Assembly (NCBI GenBank): GCA_965197585.1
Contig: OZ240215.1
Location: forward strand, 3,168,001-3,232,000
Direction: 5' to 3'
From: Dehalococcoidia bacterium
Lineage (GTDB): Bacteria > Chloroflexota > Dehalococcoidia > Plut-88900
DNA length: 64,000 bases
Shown: positions 2,312 through 31,030 of the stretch, piece by piece
Position numbering within the stretch: the first letter of the stretch is position 1
Layout: every line of letters begins with the position of its first letter
Notes under the pieces: generated by a model
What the model was told of the DNA's origin: nothing
Seen by the model: only the letters and a program-made list of their open reading frames with translations
The model's database searches: none
Made by a program: the position numbers and the translations under genes

Positions 2312-2388
2312 GGGCCATTAGCTCAGGTGGTTAGAGCGCAGTCCTGATAAGACTGAGGTCCCTGGTTCGAGTCCAGGATGGCCCACCA
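2312..2388 (+). tRNA. tRNA-Ile(GAT)
   Basis: Acceptor stem GGGCCAT/ATGGCCC, anticodon arm CAGTC-CTGATAA-GACTG, T arm CCTGG-TTCGAGT-CCAGG, encoded CCA; TGnTATAAT extended -10 at 2293-2301. Confidence 0.97.
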
Positions 2389-8352: not shown

Positions 8353-8426
8353 AGCCCATCAGCTCACGCGGTTAGAGCGCAGTCCTGATAAGACTGAGGC
8401 CCGTGGTTCGAGTCCAGGATGGCCTA
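8353..8426 (+). pseudogene. Degenerate full-length copy of tRNA-Ile(GAT)
   Basis: Colinear with 2312-2385 with 8 substitutions, including U8 to C, a C-C acceptor mismatch and a G-G T-stem mismatch; no CCA; TGCTATAAT upstream. Confidence 0.85.
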
Positions 8427-9965: not shown

Positions 9966-10074
9966 ACGATGTGGCTAGGGAGTGGTTTGGTAGGCGTTAG
10001 TCCACCACTTCGACAAGATCGGGAACGTTACCTTGGCGCTCTATTGAACCCCCCCCACCCCCCTCCGTCATTCC

Positions 10075-11130
10075 TGTAAGTGTTAGGTAATTCGTTGACA
10101 GATTGGTATAAGAGGCCAACACCAATCTGGAGGCGAGAATGCGAGACAATAGCAAGGACCTCACCCTTGAGCGGAACTACATTCAGAAGTGGCGGTTCCT
10201 CATCCATGAGTATCAACTGGTCAAGGCAGGGAAGCATCCCCGTTTCCGCTTCGCCCAGGACTTCTACTCCTTCCACGGCACTAGCCGTCAGACCTTCGCC
10301 AAGTACTACAACCGGTTCCTCCTCTCCCCCTCCGACAACGCCTTCCTCCCCCGTAAGCGGGGTCCCGGGTGGAAGTCCCGCCGCACCCTGCCCTACATTG
10401 AGCAGAAGGTCATCAACGAGCGCCTTAACGGTACCAACCGTTACGAGATCTATGCCATACTCAAACCCATCCTTAAACACAACACCCCTAAGCCCTCCAC
10501 CATCTACGCCATCACCAGACGCCACGGTTTCAATAGGCTCACAAAGCCGATGCAGCAGTCGAAGCGCAAGATCATCAAGACCCGGGCAGGAGAGCTGGGC
10601 CACCTGGACAGCCACTACCTCAGCCGGGATACCATCGTGGGCACCAAGCACCGCTACTACCTGGTGGGCCTCATCGACGCCTACACCCGTCTGGCCTGGG
10701 CCGAAGTGGTCGGAGACATCAAGAGTCTCTCCGTTATGTTTGCTACTCTGAAGTCCATCAATTTCCTTAACGTGGAGTACGGCATCCAATTCGAGGCCAT
10801 CCTCACCGACAACGGCCCCGAGATGGCCTCCCCAAGGAACACCGAGGGCCACCCCATGGAACGGATGCTCAATGAGCTGGGCATAAAGCACCGCTACACC
10901 CGCCCTTATAGGCCCCAGACCAACGGGAAGATAGAGCGGTTCTGGAGAACCTTGAACGAGGACCTGCTGGAGGGGACAACCTTCGAATCGGTCTCGGAAC
11001 TGAAGGACGAGCTTCAGCAATACCTGATCTACTACAATACTCAGAGACCCCACCAGGCAATGGACGGAAAGACCCCTTTGGAGACCCTTAAATCCACCTA
11101 ATTCTGTCAACGAATTACCTGACATCCACA
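10075..11130 (+). mobile_element. IS481-family insertion sequence, apparently complete
   Basis: TGT..ACA ends; 28-bp imperfect TIRs (tgtaagtgttaggtaattcgttgacaga / tctgtcaacgaattacctgacatccaca); ATTCC direct repeats at 10070-10074 and 11131-11135. Confidence 0.92.
10139..11101 (+). CDS. IS481-family DDE transposase (rve integrase core)
   Basis: GHLD, ILTDNGPE and TRPYRPQTNGKIERFWRTL motifs. Confidence 0.93.
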   Translation: MRDNSKDLTLERNYIQKWRFLIHEYQLVKAGKHPRFRFAQDFYSFHGTSRQTFAKYYNRFLLSPSDNAFLPRKRGPGWKSRRTLPYIEQKVINERLNGTNRYEIYAILKPILKHNTPKPSTIYAITRRHGFNRLTKPMQQSKRKIIKTRAGELGHLDSHYLSRDTIVGTKHRYYLVGLIDAYTRLAWAEVVGDIKSLSVMFATLKSINFLNVEYGIQFEAILTDNGPEMASPRNTEGHPMERMLNELGIKHRYTRPYRPQTNGKIERFWRTLNEDLLEGTTFESVSELKDELQQYLIYYNTQRPHQAMDGKTPLETLKST

Positions 11131-11180
11131 ATTCCGGCCGCCGAGAGCCGGAATCCATCCCTCTCCCCCAGTACTGAATT

Positions 11181-11280
11181 AGAGGCCCACGTGCGTGCAG
11201 AGTACGCACGTGGGCCTCTATTCTTATCTTCCCCTCTCCCTTAATGGCCCTAAGGGAGAGGGGGATTAAGGGGGTGAGGG
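11181..11280. repeat. Long palindrome (agaggcccacgtgcgt..acgcacgtgggcctct) plus a ccctctccc..gggagaggg repeat
   Basis: Inverted repeats visible directly in the sequence. Confidence 0.7.
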
Positions 11281-11331
11281 TTCCCCGGTGGGGCTGGGGG
11301 CGGTGTTCCCCCAAAAAGTGACACGAACCCC

Positions 11332-11361
11332 TTGACCAGAGTTGTACCTATGTACTATATT
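11332..11361 (+). promoter_or_regulatory. Sigma70-type promoter with an overlapping GTAC-N4-GTAC palindrome (possible LexA box)
   Basis: TTGACC-N18-TATATT; GTACCTATGTAC at 11344-11355. Confidence 0.55.
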
Positions 11362-11546
11362 CACCCCCGACTAGCTCGTCACTCACCCTAACTATCTCAA
11401 GGAGGAACCAAAAACCCAGGGAAGCCCACCCGACCCACCCGAGGACTCAACGCCTAAGCCCATCCCAACGGCCCATACACGGGGCCCGCGGCACAAGCGA
11501 ACGTCGCCATCTCCTCATCCCACGGGTCCCGTGCCCCTTCCCTGTC

Positions 11547-11985
11547 GGCAGGCGATGGAAGATGCCTGGACAGAGCCGTAGTGGACCGGCCATACCCCGC
11601 CGAGACCCCGTCTCGGTGGTCGGTTAGCAGCGAGCTTACGCTTTATCAAGCAAGGGGTGGCGGACCGGCTATCCCCGGCCGAGACTCCCTCTCGGAGGTT
11701 GGCCCGCCTGCGAGCTTACGCCATATCAAGCAAGGGGCTGATGGGCCGCCTGGACCCTCGGGTGGCCCACGTAAATACGAAATCTGAGGGGGCTACTGCC
11801 CGATCACTGGCCCCCACCATGCCTGAGGGCATTCAGAGGCGGGGTCACAGCCGGACTATCTCCCCGGAGAGTCCGAGTTTATCATCGAGCATTAGGGGTG
11901 GCAGGGCTTCCAGGCCTCGGAGCAGCCTAACAACCGCCAGAAACTCGGGGCAAAACCGTCCGGCCAGCACCTTCCATCGCCTGCC
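11547..11985 (+). ncRNA. Candidate large structured non-coding RNA of about 440 nt, family not recognised
   Basis: 15-bp perfect closing helix 11547-11561/11971-11985; two structured tandem units 79 nt apart; several further helices whose wobbles are G-U on the + strand; no credible ORF. Confidence 0.65.
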
Positions 11986-12029
11986 CCTCCCAAACAAACC
12001 AAAACCCCACAATCGAAGATCCGCCTCAG

Positions 12030-12054
12030 GAGGACTGAATAAAAGCAGTCCCTC
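12030..12054. terminator. Hairpin between the candidate ncRNA and the convergent ino1 gene
   Basis: ggactg-aataaaag-cagtcc stem-loop. Confidence 0.35.
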
Positions 12055-12072
12055 GGCGAGCCATTACCCCCC

Positions 12073-13581
12073 TTAATCCCCCCGGTAATACTCCATTCCG
12101 AGATGCGTGATCTGCTCCTCTCCCATCAGCCACCGCAGGGTGTTTTTGAGCTTCGTCTGCTGTATGAACAGGTCGTGCTCCGGGTACACCGACGGCGCGT
12201 GCTGCGGGCTCTTGAAGTAGAACGACAGCCACTCCTGGATGCCTGCCATGCCTGCCCGTTGTGCCAGGTCCATGAACAGCACCAGGTCCAGTACTAGCGG
12301 AGCCGCCAGTATCGAATCTGAGCACAGGAAGTTGACCTTCAGCTGCATCCGCCGCCCGAGCCACCCAAACAGGTCGATGTTGTCCCAGCCCTCCTTGTTG
12401 TCTCCCCGGGGAGGGTAGTAGTTGATTCGCACCTTGTGATAGGCGTCCTTATACAGGTCGGGATACAGGTCGGGCTGCAATATGTATTCCAGTACCCCTA
12501 GCTTCGACTCTTCCTTCGTCTTGAAATTCTCGGGCTCGTCCAGCACCTCGCCGTCCCGGTTCCCCAATATGTTCGTCGAAAACCAGCCATTCAATCCAAG
12601 CATCCTGGCCTTCAGCATCGGACCGATCACGGTCTTTACCAAGGTCTGGCCGGTCTTGAAGTCTTTTCCGCATATCGGCACGCCCTGGTCCCGGGCCAGC
12701 TTCTCAAGAGCGGTAACATCCACGGTCAGGTTGGGAGCCCCGTTTATGAAGGGCACCCTCTCCATCAATGCTGCGTAAGCGTAGATCATGGAAGGTGCGA
12801 TGTTTTCGTCGTCGTCATGAAGCGCCTCAACGAAATTTTCGATGTTTCGATGGGCCTCGGTCTCCGTAATGAATTTTTCGGTCGAGGCGCACCAGGCCAT
12901 AACCAGCCGGTCACAGTTGTTCTCTTCCTTGAAACGTCGGATATCGCTGCGTATAGCCTCCACGGCGGCGACCTTGGAGCCAGGCGATTTGACATTGGTC
13001 CCGTTGATGCGCCGGACGTAATCATTGTCGAAAATAGCCGGCATAGGCTCGACCGACCTCAGGAAGTCGGCTATGGGCTCCACCTGTTCATGCCGGTCCA
13101 AAACACCCGCGTTTACCGCCGAGTCGTAAGCGTTGTCGGGGATCGGGTCCCAGGCCCCGAATACCAGCTGGTCCAGCTTTGCCAGGGGAACGAAGTCCCG
13201 AATGAGTGGCGACCGTTTGTCAGGTCGCTTCCCGAGACGAATGGTGGCCATCTGAGACACCGATCCCACCGGTTGTCCCGTCCCCCGCTTGATATGCTCG
13301 ATGCCTGCGATAAAGGTGGATGCCACCGCCCCCAAACCCACCATCAGGACACCGAGTTTCCCGCTGACTGGGCTGATACTGGGGGCGGCTGTTGTTACGA
13401 AATCCTTAGGTTCCAAGTTGATCCCTTTCTCATGTGAAAGTTCCATTAGCCGCTCGTGCCACTGCGATGGTATGCGTCCAGTATTTGCCCAGTGCTGCAC
13501 CGTGCTTTGGCGTTTGCCCAGCAGTGCCGCCAGCGCCGACTGACCACCGAAACGATCGATTATCTGCTTTGCGTTGTTCAT
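12073..13581 (-). CDS. ino1: Myo-inositol-1-phosphate synthase with an N-terminal Cro-like HTH extension
   Basis: VGLGAVAST, WCASTE, FINGAPN, GKDFKTGQT, NILGNRDG and DSILAAPLVLDL motifs; first ~60 aa FGGQSALAALLGKRQSTVQHW..GRIP. Confidence 0.92.
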   Translation of the reverse strand: MNNAKQIIDRFGGQSALAALLGKRQSTVQHWANTGRIPSQWHERLMELSHEKGINLEPKDFVTTAAPSISPVSGKLGVLMVGLGAVASTFIAGIEHIKRGTGQPVGSVSQMATIRLGKRPDKRSPLIRDFVPLAKLDQLVFGAWDPIPDNAYDSAVNAGVLDRHEQVEPIADFLRSVEPMPAIFDNDYVRRINGTNVKSPGSKVAAVEAIRSDIRRFKEENNCDRLVMAWCASTEKFITETEAHRNIENFVEALHDDDENIAPSMIYAYAALMERVPFINGAPNLTVDVTALEKLARDQGVPICGKDFKTGQTLVKTVIGPMLKARMLGLNGWFSTNILGNRDGEVLDEPENFKTKEESKLGVLEYILQPDLYPDLYKDAYHKVRINYYPPRGDNKEGWDNIDLFGWLGRRMQLKVNFLCSDSILAAPLVLDLVLFMDLAQRAGMAGIQEWLSFYFKSPQHAPSVYPEHDLFIQQTKLKNTLRWLMGEEQITHLGMEYYRGD

Positions 13582-17007: not shown

Positions 17008-17103
17008 TGGCGGAAGCGGGGGGATTCGAACCCACCGAGACCTGTATCGAACACGTCTAACCGTTTTTAAGACAGCCGCAATAAACCTCTCTGCCACACT
17101 TCC
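17008..17103 (-). tRNA. tRNA with a serine-type body and a TAA (Leu) anticodon; possibly a tRNA-Ser(TGA) pseudogene
   Basis: Acceptor GGAAGTG/CGCTTCC, G73, encoded CCA, long variable arm, anticodon arm GCTGT-CTTAAAA-ACGGT; one T-stem mismatch. Confidence 0.8.
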
Positions 17104-30931: not shown

Positions 30932-31030
30932 TGGCGGGAGCGGGAGGGAGTCGAACCCACCGTGGACGCCGAAGGGCGCCCACCGGACGGATTTGAAGTC
31001 CGCGGAGCCCACCGGGACCCATCCGCTCCC
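30932..31030 (-). tRNA. selC: tRNA-Sec(TCA)
   Basis: Anticodon arm GCGGA-CTTCAAA-TCCGT, 8-bp acceptor stem, long D stem and variable arm, GCCA end. Confidence 0.93.

What the first reader, a model, noticed from the sequence alone, without database searches (positions are those of the whole stretch)
11547..11985. Candidate undescribed ~440-nt structured RNA with a duplicated pseudoknot-like domain
Seen: GGCAGGCGATGGAAG (11547-11561) pairs perfectly with CTTCCATCGCCTGCC (11971-11985), closing a region with no credible ORF. Inside are two tandem units 79 nt apart (11583-11657, 11662-11737). Each can form an outer helix (gaccggcc/ggtcggtt in unit 1; ggcggaccggct/ggttggcccgcc in unit 2), a ccgaga/tctcgg hairpin, a crossing CCCC/GGGG pairing, and the conserved tail GCGAGCTTACGC-nn-TATCAAGCAAGGGG. 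Differences between the units mostly keep the pairing. Further helices follow: tgggccgcctg/cgggtggccca, tctga/tcaga enclosing gggggcta/tggccccc and atgcc/ggcat, ggact..tctcc/ggaga..gtcc, and ccgagttt/aaactcgg. Wobble pairs are G-U on the + strand, which points to selection on a + strand transcript. I do not recognise it as RNase P, tmRNA, SRP, 6S, an intron or a known riboswitch. Inference: a large modular ncRNA (ribozyme, scaffold or tandem aptamer). The helix order in each unit resembles an HDV-like nested pseudoknot without the HDV consensus nucleotides.
Basis: partly seen in the sequence, partly recalled or inferred. Interest (0 to 1): 0.85.

Follow-up and report, generated by a model that had tools for sequence, protein, structure and literature searches.

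The report
RNA-encoding transposon repeat, not lone RNA
The folded 440-base stretch is real, but it is the swappable middle part of a promoter-driven RNA carried by a small jumping-DNA element that occurs about 57 times in this uncultured Dehalococcoidia genome.

Summary
The 15-bp closing helix, both tandem units and every listed helix are in the sequence. Across 25 homologues 90.5% of pair cells stay paired (36-51% in slid controls), with compensatory changes in four helices, and G.U outnumbers A.C 235 to 61 on the + strand.

The boundaries and the "single novel RNA" reading do not hold. The region is the variable central domain of one subclass (6 copies) of a 0.7-0.9 kb repeat with 57 copies in this genome. 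The family was found only in this genus: 8 of 8 genomes by BLAST, 0 of 145 other Dehalococcoidia genomes by covariance model.

Every copy has a conserved sigma70-type promoter, a ~170-nt 5' scaffold, the same closing helix around a variable domain (8 BLAST clusters) and an A/C-rich tail. Fifteen copies keep ~30-bp imperfect terminal inverted repeats and 5-bp target-site duplications. Their ends resemble those of a co-resident IS481-like insertion sequence.

It is best read as a large, RNA-encoding MITE-like transposon family. Rfam has no match, and there is no support for an HDV-like ribozyme. The RNA's function is unknown.

The parts
11301..11331 (+). Variant ('L2') left end of the element, holding the inner terminal-repeat motif GTGACAC (11318-11324) directly upstream of the -35 box. 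The outer terminal repeat seen in intact copies is missing in this copy.
   Evidence: 37 of 57 copies carry this L2 type, and 12 of those have the same upstream repeat module as the window copy. Aligned with intact left ends.
11332..11361 (+). Sigma70-type promoter, TTGACC-18 nt-TATATT. The inferred transcription start is near 11368.
   Evidence: 10 of 12 consensus matches, with 2 sites found against 0.3 expected in shuffles; all 57 copies have TTGA(C/T)N and TAnnnT at a spacing of 17-18, and the hexamers are >=90% conserved while most spacer positions are only about 40-60% conserved. The start site is inferred, not shown.
11369..11546 (+). Conserved 5' scaffold of the RNA. It holds a palindromic leader (11369-11380), the invariant AAGGAGG (11399-11405), GAGGACTCAACG (11441-11452), AGCCCATCCCAA (11457-11468), a variable hairpin (11469-11488), CGCCATCTCCTCAT (11505-11518), a small hairpin (11521-11533), and a helix AGGGAAG (11418-11424) with CTTCCCT (11537-11543).
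   Evidence: Alignment A1 of 81 copies. Covarying pairs in the small hairpin, the variable hairpin, a CGY/RCG helix and the GGGAAG/CTTCCC helix. Covariance model R1.
11547..11561 (+). 5' strand of the closing helix around the variable domain.
   Evidence: Both strands were found in 57 of 57 copies. The helix forms in up to 54 of 57 MFE folds. The extension covaries (GGT/ACC against GAC/GTC).
11562..11970 (+). Variable central domain, 'class A' (the finding). Its parts:
- Unit 1: helix 11584-11591/11618-11625, hairpin 11600-11606/11610-11616, hairpin 11629-11632/11639-11642, possible pseudoknot 11595-11598/11654-11657.
- Unit 2: helix 11659-11670/11697-11708, hairpin 11679-11684/11690-11695, hairpin 11710-11712/11719-11721, possible pseudoknot 11673-11676/11734-11737.
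- Hairpin 11742-11752/11759-11769.
- Three-helix domain: 11783-11787/11833-11837, 11788-11795/11808-11815, 11819-11823/11828-11832.
- Hairpin 11853-11861/11866-11874.
- Subclass-specific helix 11873-11880/11941-11948.
   Evidence: Six copies in this genome at 90-100% identity. Homologues with three units exist in relatives.
11971..11985 (+). 3' strand of the closing helix.
   Evidence: helix 1: 90.9% of cells paired.
11986..12040 (+). 3' module. An A/C-rich, G-poor tail (11986-12019) is followed by the hairpin TCCGCC-TCA-GGAGGA (12020-12034) and CTGAAT (12035-12040). This copy ends in the 'short' form and lacks the right terminal repeat.
   Evidence: 41 nhmmer hits of the 3' module in the genome. 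One search shows the tails of all 57 copies; 29 of 57 have the short end and 24 of 57 have the right terminal repeat. The rut-like reading of the tail is inference.
11165..11300 (+). Separate small repeat module abutting the element's left end. It has inverted termini CCCCCAG/CTGGGGG, a terminator-like hairpin (11180-11220, followed by a T-rich run) and a second hairpin (11231-11263).
   Evidence: 19-pair stem. I7; about 40 full-length or partial BLAST matches of 11150-11330 in the genome, some not next to an element. The inverted termini were read directly.
10075..11130 (+). Context, not part of the RNA: an IS481-like insertion sequence of 1056 bp with one rve-type transposase ORF (10139-11101). 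It sits inside a REP-like hairpin with a 5-bp duplication, ATTCC, at 10070-10074 and 11131-11135. Its terminal repeats resemble those of the element.
   Evidence: best NCBIfam hit is IS481 family at 184 bits, below the curated cut-off of 224; rve, rve_2 and rve_3; 20 further near-full-length matches in the genome at 88-99.9% identity; ends and duplications; alignment of the ends.

Best explanation
What it is. The region 11547-11985 is the variable central domain of a ~650-700-nt, + strand, highly structured non-coding RNA. That RNA is encoded by one degenerate copy of a genus-specific family of 0.7-0.9 kb MITE-like, non-autonomous DNA transposons.

Anatomy of an intact member, in order:
- 5-bp target duplication.
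- ~30-bp imperfect left terminal repeat.
- Sigma70-type promoter immediately inside that repeat.
- ~170-nt conserved RNA scaffold.
- Conserved closing helix.
- Interchangeable structured domain of 300-530 nt.
- Second strand of the closing helix.
- A/C-rich tail.
- Right terminal repeat.
- 5-bp target duplication.

How it most likely works. Steps 1 and 4 are shown; steps 2, 3 and 5 are inferred.
1. Shown: the element has transposon ends and target duplications, and it is present or absent at orthologous sites in sister species.
2. Inferred: it is moved in trans by an IS481-family DDE transposase, because the ends have the same architecture and the same 5-bp duplication as the co-resident IS.
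3. The position is shown, the cause is not: intact copies sit with their right end exactly 5 bp upstream of a resident -35 box and point the same way as that gene.
4. Shown: copies exchange their central domains, so the same locus carries different domains in sister species. That the exchange happens by recombination through the conserved scaffold is inferred.
5. Inferred: the internal promoter transcribes the whole element. The conserved structure is kept by selection on the RNA. The invariant Shine-Dalgarno-like AAGGAGG near the 5' end may act as a 5' stabiliser. The unstructured C-rich tail may be a Rho entry site that ends the transcript before or around the host promoter.

What the RNA does, for the element or for the cell, is not known.
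For: Copy number and range.
- The 439-nt query finds 6 copies in the genome.
- The 5' module gives 61 nhmmer hits, 57 of them full length.
- BLAST finds the element in 8 of 8 other genomes of the genus and in 0 of 52 genomes of other genera.
- Covariance model R1 finds it in 5 of 5 genus genomes and in 0 of 145 other genomes of the class.

Architecture.
- All 57 copies have the promoter hexamers.
- All 57 have both strands of the closing helix.
- The middles fall into 8 BLAST clusters of 18, 12, 10, 7, 6, 2, 1 and 1 copies.

RNA structure: with the numbers given in the observation check.

Transposon features.
- 15 of 57 copies have both terminal repeats.
- Their flanking 5-mers match 5/5 in 7 copies and 4/5 in 4 copies, mean 4.0. 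Mismatched pairings give a mean of 1.39, and 0 of 210 reach 5/5.
- End-to-end length is 734-885 bp.
- The element's ends align without gaps with the ends of the IS481-like IS. By my own count on alignment A3, 17 of 27 positions are identical. That IS also makes a 5-bp duplication.
- Four sites that are filled in relatives are empty in this genome.
- At the window's own locus the element is present in G003 and G005 and absent in G001 and G007.

Position.
- The downstream gene is on the same strand in 46 of 57 copies, and 32 of 57 lie in divergent intergenic regions.
- In one search, 25 copies have the complete right-end motif and 17 of them have TTG within one base of position +5. The stricter count finds 24 right repeats.
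- An empty site shows that the host promoter was there before the insertion.

Domain swapping.
- In 7 of 12 orthologous pairs the middle does not align (34-51% identity), while the flanking gene is 77-96% identical.
- The same is seen at the window locus.
- Where the middle is retained it is 96-97% identical, against 79-94% at third codon positions of the neighbouring gene.
Against: - The window copy has neither an intact terminal repeat nor a recognisable duplication. It is assigned to the transposon family only by homology of its interior.
- 42 of 57 copies lack one or both canonical ends, and I could not define termini or duplications for the common 'L2 + short end' form (27 of 57).
- No copy pair in this genome is more than 96% identical over its full length, whereas the IS copies are ~99% identical. 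There is therefore no sign of recent transposition here.
- No autonomous element carrying these exact ends was found in this genome. All 18 left-end motif matches lie in elements or are solo.
- The IS ends are only partly similar, so the mobilising transposase is not identified.
- Transcription is not demonstrated.
- A C-rich tail read as a Rho site and a 5' stabiliser are inferences from general knowledge, not tests.
- My gene calls come from a crude home-made caller.
Confidence: 0.7

Rival explanations
1. The RNA is the point. This is a host or 'domesticated' trans-acting ncRNA gene family. A conserved scaffold (the 5' module, the closing helix and the tail) displays interchangeable structured domains, and the transposon ends are only the vehicle that spread it. 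This overlaps with the best explanation and differs only in who benefits.
For: - Compensatory changes and G.U strand bias.
- AAGGAGG and several scaffold motifs are invariant in 81 of 81 aligned copies from 9 genomes.
- Retained middles are more conserved than synonymous sites of the neighbouring gene.
- There are no near-identical copies, which fits an old and maintained family.
- Copies are kept at the same loci across species.
Against: - The family is restricted to the genus.
- The domain at a given locus is freely replaced by an unrelated one, which argues against locus-specific or domain-specific necessity.
- No motif is shared across the domain classes.
- No partner protein is known.
- Gene conversion among copies can mimic purifying selection.
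Confidence: 0.3
2. The element is a mobile promoter and leader cassette acting in cis. It adds a second upstream promoter and a long, stable, structured 5' leader to the gene downstream, or it tunes that gene by transcription running across its promoter.
For: - The downstream gene is on the same strand in 46 of 57 copies, and in 23 of the 24 copies with a right terminal repeat.
- The right end lies exactly 5 bp from a -35-like box.
- No intrinsic terminator was found at the 3' end of the window copy, and I saw none in the tails printed.
- Some copies have a terminator-like hairpin upstream.
- Per passages of PMC3184786, promoter-bearing repeats upstream of genes are known, such as Correia elements and Neisseria REP2.
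Against: - In the window copy and 10 others the downstream gene is convergent.
- The host genes keep their own promoters.
- The 30 downstream genes examined share no function.
- An unstructured C-rich tail just before the gene would favour termination rather than read-through.
- The elaborate covarying structure is more than a promoter cassette needs.
Confidence: 0.25
3. This is purely selfish DNA. The folds are by-products of nested palindromic repeats and of concerted evolution among copies, and the RNA has no role.
For: - The genome is full of small palindromic repeats that insert into these elements.
- Copies recombine.
- Related sequences can beat shuffle controls without any structure (caveat printed).
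Against: - The G.U over A.C bias of 235 to 61 marks one strand as the folded one, which DNA palindromes would not produce.
- Compensatory changes occur in four independent helices.
- The promoter hexamers are conserved while the spacer drifts.
Confidence: 0.12
4. Each ~80-nt unit is a self-cleaving ribozyme (HDV-like nested pseudoknot) or a tandem ligand-binding aptamer.
For: Each unit can form a helix, a hairpin and a crossing CCCC/GGGG pairing. The number of units varies between two and three among homologues, as happens with tandem aptamers.
Against: - No ribozyme or riboswitch family of Rfam 15 matched at E <= 10, nor at E <= 0.1 in 20 other copies.
- The crossing pairs never vary.
- The units exist in only one of 8 domain clusters, so they cannot explain the family.
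- The position is not a riboswitch position: the host promoter lies downstream of the element.
Confidence: 0.04

Closest known systems
Bacterial MITEs and transcribed structured repeats (Correia/CREE elements, Bacillus bcr1, ERIC, BOX). I read passages of the review PMC3184786; the ERIC and BOX details are recalled.
   Same: Non-coding, multicopy and intergenic. They have terminal inverted repeats and short target duplications (bcr1: 5 bp). Some carry promoters (Correia). Some are transcribed and show compensatory base changes that keep an RNA fold (bcr1).
   Different: - The review gives typical sizes below 200 bp and up to ~400 bp; these elements are 734-885 bp.
- They carry a complete inward-reading promoter at the left end.
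- Their RNA has many helices, organised as a conserved scaffold plus a closing helix around an interchangeable domain.
- They sit 5 bp from host -35 boxes.
IS481-family insertion sequences (the 1056-bp IS at window 10075-11130 and its ~20 other copies).
   Same: Terminal repeats begin with TG(T) and share the inner GTT..GGTA..TGACA pattern. Both make a 5-bp target duplication. Transcription reads inward from the left end.
   Different: There is no transposase gene. The ends are only partly identical (17 of 27 positions, by my count). The IS targets a REP-like hairpin, whereas the elements lie next to -35 boxes.
Transposon-borne structured RNAs: HEARO/IscB omega-RNA, TnpB omega-RNA, IS110 bridge RNA (recalled from the literature, not from a call).
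   Same: Multicopy, structured, promoter-driven RNAs that travel with mobile DNA. Orphan copies without a protein gene are known for HEARO.
   Different: - The genome has no TnpB zinc-ribbon domain, no Y1 transposase and no reverse transcriptase.
- There is no Rfam HEARO match.
- The four IS110-family copies I examined lie next to a REP-like hairpin. Two of them are adjacent to elements, an association I attribute to that hairpin.
- The ends are of DDE type.
- No guide-like segment was seen.
Neisseria REP2 and Borrelia IR promoter repeats (passages of PMC3184786).
   Same: Repeats that carry a promoter and internal stem-loops and sit immediately upstream of genes.
   Different: REP2 supplies a ribosome-binding site and the start codon for the gene and has no terminal repeats. 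Here the host keeps its own promoter, and the element makes a long non-coding RNA.
Large ornate bacterial ncRNAs (OLE, GOLLD, ROOL, raiA); names recalled, tested through Rfam.
   Same: Size (~0.6-0.8 kb) and structural complexity, with unknown biochemical function.
   Different: No match to any of them. Those are one or a few copies per genome and are not bounded by transposon ends.

Membership tests
MITE / non-autonomous DNA transposon | Terminal inverted repeats | tested here: met
   15 of 57 copies carry both ~30-bp imperfect repeats. The window copy itself does not.
MITE / non-autonomous DNA transposon | Target-site duplication flanking the repeats | tested here: met
   The 5-bp direct repeats match 5/5 in 7 and 4/5 in 4 of 15 copies, mean 4.0. 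The control mean is 1.39, and 0 of 210 mismatched pairs reach 5/5.
MITE / non-autonomous DNA transposon | Many dispersed copies, with presence/absence differences between relatives | tested here: met
   57 copies. Four sites are empty in G000 but filled in relatives. The window locus is filled in G003 and G005 and empty in G001 and G007.
MITE / non-autonomous DNA transposon | No transposase gene inside | tested here: met
   No called gene overlaps 55 of 57 copies. The 139-aa ORF in the window copy has no Pfam hit.
MITE / non-autonomous DNA transposon | Miniature size (usually <200 bp, up to ~400 bp; PMC3184786, passage seen) | tested here: not met
   734-885 bp from end to end. I therefore call it 'MITE-like', not a typical MITE.
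MITE / non-autonomous DNA transposon | Cognate autonomous IS with matching ends | tested here: inconclusive
   The IS481-like IS has ends of related architecture (17 of 27 positions by my count) and the same 5-bp duplication. No IS with identical ends is present in this genome. The other genomes were not examined for one.
HDV-like self-cleaving ribozyme | Match to HDV-type covariance models or conserved core nucleotides | tested here: not met
   cmscan of 11200-12200 at E <= 10 listed no ribozyme family.
HDV-like self-cleaving ribozyme | Nested double pseudoknot supported by covariation | tested here: inconclusive
   The CCCC/GGGG pairs are 100% paired but never vary (helices 3 and 7).
HDV-like self-cleaving ribozyme | Self-cleavage | not testable with these tools
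   Needs an in-vitro transcription and cleavage assay.
Riboswitch / cis-regulatory leader | Lies in the 5' UTR of the regulated gene, between its promoter and its start codon | tested here: not met
   Host -35/-10 boxes lie downstream of the element. The gene downstream of the window copy is convergent.
Omega-RNA of IscB/TnpB (IS200/IS605) | TnpB/IscB or Y1 transposase present in the genome, and the RNA next to it | tested here: not met
   PF07282 and PF01797 gave 0 matches in this single-contig genome, while control genomes did match.
ORF-less group II intron | Domain V/VI signature, and a reverse transcriptase available in trans | tested here: not met
   No Intron_gpII match. PF00078 gave 0 matches in the genome.
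Known large ncRNA families in Rfam 15 (OLE, GOLLD, ROOL, HEARO, raiA, 6S, tmRNA, RNase P, SRP) | Covariance-model match | tested here: not met
   No family matched within the element at gathering score or at E <= 10, nor in 20 further copies at E <= 0.1.

The most novel reading that the evidence does not exclude
This would be a new kind of bacterial mobile element: a DDE-type non-autonomous transposon whose cargo is a self-expressed, modular structured RNA. The RNA is a fixed scaffold that displays exchangeable 300-530-nt folded domains. The element inserts at a fixed position, 5 bp upstream of sigma70 -35 boxes. The RNA is functional in trans, or couples to the adjacent promoter. That would make it a prokaryotic counterpart of RNA-expressing SINE/Alu-type repeats rather than inert DNA.
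Probability: 0.25. Interest if true: 0.8.

Novelty: new variant of a known kind. Interest (0 to 1): 0.55.

Why it matters
The finding shows how a convincing 'novel large RNA' seen in a single window can be one face of a repeat family. The family itself is still unusual. Transposon-like repeats of ~0.8 kb make up about 1.3% of a 3.4-Mb genome. Each carries its own promoter and an RNA fold held by compensatory changes. Each has a conserved scaffold around swappable domains, and the intact copies sit at a fixed distance from host promoters.

If the RNA is functional, this is a new class of large bacterial ncRNA and a natural scaffold for displaying RNA domains. If insertion really is aimed at the -40 position of promoters, it is a new target-choice mechanism for an IS481-type transposase.

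Either way, these repeats will confuse annotation, promoter prediction and ncRNA discovery in these Dehalococcoidia genomes.

Tried and rejected
Known RNA families. I ran Rfam at gathering score on the whole window, at E <= 10 on 11200-12200 and at E <= 0.1 on 20 other copies. There were only chance hairpin matches upstream of the element and one neighbouring SRP RNA.

Other mobile systems considered and dropped.
- IS200/IS605 with TnpB omega-RNA: no PF07282 or PF01797 in the genome.
- Retroelement or group II intron: no PF00078.
- IS110 bridge RNA: there are 9 IS110-family genes. The four copies I aligned are inserted next to a REP-like hairpin, and two of them merely lie upstream of elements.

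Ideas that led nowhere.
- An early idea that 'ACTGAA' direct repeats at both ends mark a circular-permuted or att-type junction was dropped. The motif is conserved element sequence, and intact copies extend beyond it.
- I could not find termini or duplications for the 'L2 + short end' form, which includes the window copy.
- I inspected empty and filled junctions by eye for duplications at three loci. The result was inconclusive.
- A 7-mer search for a motif shared by all domain classes found nothing beyond GC-rich words that are common in the genome.
- RNAalifold on A2 gave an implausible long-range consensus with only 7 pairs changed on both sides.
- RNAalifold on the 5' module gave mostly invariant pairs.

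Range. Plasmid and phage collections gave no match.

Literature. Three full-text searches found no description of such an element. Only the listing was seen, except for passages of PMC3184786. Supplementary files were not consulted.

Expression. No RNA holder was listed by the look-up of sequencing runs. Two runs guessed to be RNA (X19 and X20, same study) hold short contigs lying only on 11413-12009.

The hmmer/phmmer protein searches, structure prediction, complex prediction and the protein atlas were not used, because the feature is non-coding.
Full report
**The observation.**
The 15-nt arms at 11547-11561 and 11971-11985 are perfectly complementary, and the repeat finder extends them to 19 nt at 95%. 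The two tandem units are 79-80 nt apart, at 80% and 93% identity in their two blocks. Every listed helix is present with full or near-full complementarity. The + strand folds to -210.8 kcal/mol with z = -4.35, against z = -2.72 for the - strand. Mechanical ORFs of 68 and 139 aa overlap the region. The longer one has no Pfam match, and the homologues carry 1- and 2-nt indels.

**It is not a single locus.**
The 439-nt stretch has five further copies in the same 3.43-Mb, single-contig genome, at 90-94% identity. Aligning them shows that the similarity runs from about window 11150 to 12044, well beyond the finding.

The 231 nt upstream of the finding (11330-11560) are far more abundant. nhmmer finds 61 matches, 57 of them full length, and finds 41 matches of the ~85-nt stretch that begins at the 3' arm of the closing helix (11960-12045). 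It forms in up to 54 of 57 minimum-energy folds of the full transcripts.

What lies between the two strands differs between copies, falling into eight BLAST clusters of 18, 12, 10, 7, 6, 2, 1 and 1. The finding is therefore the variable central domain of one subclass of a family with a conserved frame.

**The frame.**
Each of the 57 copies begins with a -35 box TTGA(C/T)N and a -10 box TAnnnT, 17 or 18 nt apart. The hexamers are at least 90% conserved, while most spacer positions are only about 40-60% conserved. The window copy scores 10 of 12 against consensus at 11332-11361.

Downstream comes a ~170-nt scaffold. Its motifs, including a Shine-Dalgarno-like AAGGAGG, are invariant in 81 of 81 aligned copies from nine genomes. 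Several of its helices covary. After the closing helix comes an A/C-rich, G-poor tail and then one to three small hairpins. No start codon follows the AAGGAGG at a usable distance, and indels differ between copies, so I read the whole unit as non-coding.

**The RNA fold is under constraint, on the + strand.**
Seventy-four cells changed on both sides, against a shuffled mean of 29.3 (0 of 500 shuffles reach it). Clear compensatory changes occur in four helices: the unit-2 hairpin, the TCTGA/TCAGA helix, the ATGCC/GGCAT helix and the GGACT.../...AGTCC hairpin. G.U cells outnumber A.C cells 235 to 61.

The caveats are these. The sequences are related, so by the tool's own warning the shuffle counts are not probabilities. 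The two CCCC/GGGG pseudoknot pairings never vary. The GAGTTT/AAACTC helix is specific to one subclass (43.9% paired).

**It matches nothing known as an RNA.**
No Rfam 15 family matches the element at gathering score, at E <= 10 in the window copy, or at E <= 0.1 in 20 other copies. That includes HDV-type and other ribozymes, riboswitches, HEARO, OLE, GOLLD, ROOL, group II intron domains, 6S, tmRNA, RNase P and SRP.

**Range.**
BLAST finds the element in 8 of 8 other genomes of the genus and in 0 of 52 genomes of other genera of the class. A covariance model of the scaffold finds it in 5 of 5 genus genomes and in 0 of 145 others from 109 genera. Plasmid and phage collections hold nothing similar.

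**It is a transposon-like repeat.**
About 25 copies end in a conserved 27-nt motif, after which similarity stops. Fifteen copies begin with a conserved ~34-nt motif directly upstream of the -35 box. The left motif and the reverse complement of the right motif form an imperfect ~30-bp terminal inverted repeat.

In the 15 copies that have both ends, the 5 nt outside the left end repeat the 5 nt outside the right end. Seven match 5/5 and four match 4/5, for a mean of 4.0. Mismatched pairings give a mean of 1.39, and none of 210 reaches 5/5. End-to-end lengths are 734-885 bp.

Four sites that are filled in sister species are empty in this genome. The window's own locus is filled in G003 and G005 and empty in G001 and G007.

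The 1056-bp IS next to the window copy (10075-11130) encodes an rve-type transposase whose best match is the IS481 family, though below NCBI's cut-off. It has about 20 further copies and makes a 5-bp duplication. Its ends align without gaps with the element's ends, with 17 of 27 positions identical by my count. This is the signature of a non-autonomous element of the IS481 type.

By size, however, it is not a typical MITE. The review PMC3184786 gives typical sizes below 200 bp and up to ~400 bp (passage seen).

**Where it sits.**
Using a crude home-made gene caller (2482 genes), the gene downstream is on the same strand in 46 of 57 copies, and 32 of 57 lie in divergent intergenic regions. From the 69% same-strand adjacency I estimate that about 15% of intergenic regions are divergent.

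In one search, 25 copies have the complete right-end motif. In 17 of them a TTG lies within one base of 5 nt beyond the motif, followed at promoter spacing by a -10-like hexamer. These promoter sequences differ between copies, and one pre-exists in an empty site. They therefore belong to the host. The 5 nt between the element and the host -35 box are the target duplication. Whether this reflects target choice or selection after insertion is open.

The 30 downstream genes I annotated share no function.

**Copies exchange domains.**
In 7 of 12 orthologous locus pairs the element is kept but its central domain does not align (34-51% identity), although the neighbouring gene is 77-96% identical. 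Where the same domain is kept, it is 96-97% identical against 79-94% at third codon positions. The window locus shows the same pattern: G003 and G005 carry the frame with a different domain.

No two full-length copies in this genome exceed 96% identity. The family therefore looks old and recombining rather than recently active.

**The window copy.**
It is a degenerate member. Its left end is the variant 'L2' form, preceded by another small repeat module that contains a terminator-like hairpin (11165-11300). Its right end is the 'short' form, ending at CTGAAT (12040). I found no duplication for it. Its downstream neighbour, a myo-inositol-1-phosphate synthase gene, is convergent.

**Mechanism, with its limits.**
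Shown:
- the repeat family and its promoter-like signals;
- the constrained + strand fold;
- transposon ends and target duplications in intact members;
- presence/absence between species;
- domain replacement at fixed loci;
- the fixed spacing to host -35 boxes.

Inferred:
- mobilisation in trans by an IS481-family transposase;
- transcription of the whole unit from the internal promoter;
- a stabilising role for the 5' AAGGAGG, by analogy with Gram-positive 5' stabilisers (recalled knowledge);
- Rho-dependent termination in the C-rich tail.

Unknown: what the RNA does. I give 0.7 to the statement of what the thing is. The rival readings of who benefits (trans-acting RNA family, cis promoter/leader cassette, inert DNA) remain open.

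**Verdict.**
The feature is a new, unusually large and RNA-centred variant of a known kind, a MITE-like repeat. It is not a categorically new stand-alone RNA and not an HDV-like ribozyme.

Noticed in passing
G000:C1:3404961 (outside the window; seen): A solo copy of the element's 34-nt left terminal repeat sits directly upstream of the -35 box of the groES-groEL operon. It is followed by an inverted repeat that looks like the heat-shock operator known as CIRCE (name recalled). It may be a remnant of an excised or deleted element. Alternatively, the repeat may double as a promoter-upstream site.
   Followed up: partly
window 10075-11130, with 20 further matches in the genome: An IS481-like IS of 1056 bp, ~99% identical among most copies. 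In all 12 copies examined it is inserted inside the same REP-like hairpin, with an ATTCC duplication. Four elements have a copy within 400 nt.
   Followed up: yes
window 11165-11300, with about 40 full-length or partial matches in the genome: A ~136-bp repeat module with inverted termini CCCCCAG/CTGGGGG, containing a 19-bp-stem terminator-like hairpin and a second hairpin. It occurs both next to elements and alone. It may be a separate small MITE that supplies terminators.
   Followed up: partly
G000:C1:1396256, 2811211, 2899408, 3412979 and five more: Nine IS110-family transposase genes. The four aligned copies are inserted next to a REP-like hairpin, and two of them lie just upstream of elements E17 and E57.
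   Followed up: partly
Scaffold hairpin loops and 3' tails of many copies: A ~22-nt hairpin module (GGAACATCCGCC...GGAGGA type) appears in variable numbers. It occurs in the 3' tails (one to three copies) and is inserted into a scaffold hairpin loop in 8 of the 57 own-genome copies. It behaves like a tiny mobile or expandable hairpin.
   Followed up: no
window 11369-11380 and the equivalent place in other copies: The first ~12 nt of the inferred transcript are palindromic, in three alternative versions (GACTAGCTAGTC-like, GTTCGAAC, GGTCTAGACC). Each goes with its own promoter-spacer type. This could be an operator for a DNA-binding protein or a 5' hairpin.
   Followed up: no
window 30936-31030 (-), 2312-2385 (+), 8353-8426 (+), 17011-17103 (-): A selenocysteine tRNA (65.8 bits) and three other tRNA genes are in the window.
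   Followed up: no
window 12073-13581 (-): The mechanical ORF for the myo-inositol-1-phosphate synthase gene has about 75 extra N-terminal residues with weak helix-turn-helix-like matches (YdaS/Cro, below cut-off). Either the start is over-extended or a small DNA-binding domain is fused.
   Followed up: no
L094:1-123 (-), upstream of element E18: The bacterial large SRP RNA gene (69.8 bits, cut off by the locus end) lies divergently just upstream of one element copy.
   Followed up: no
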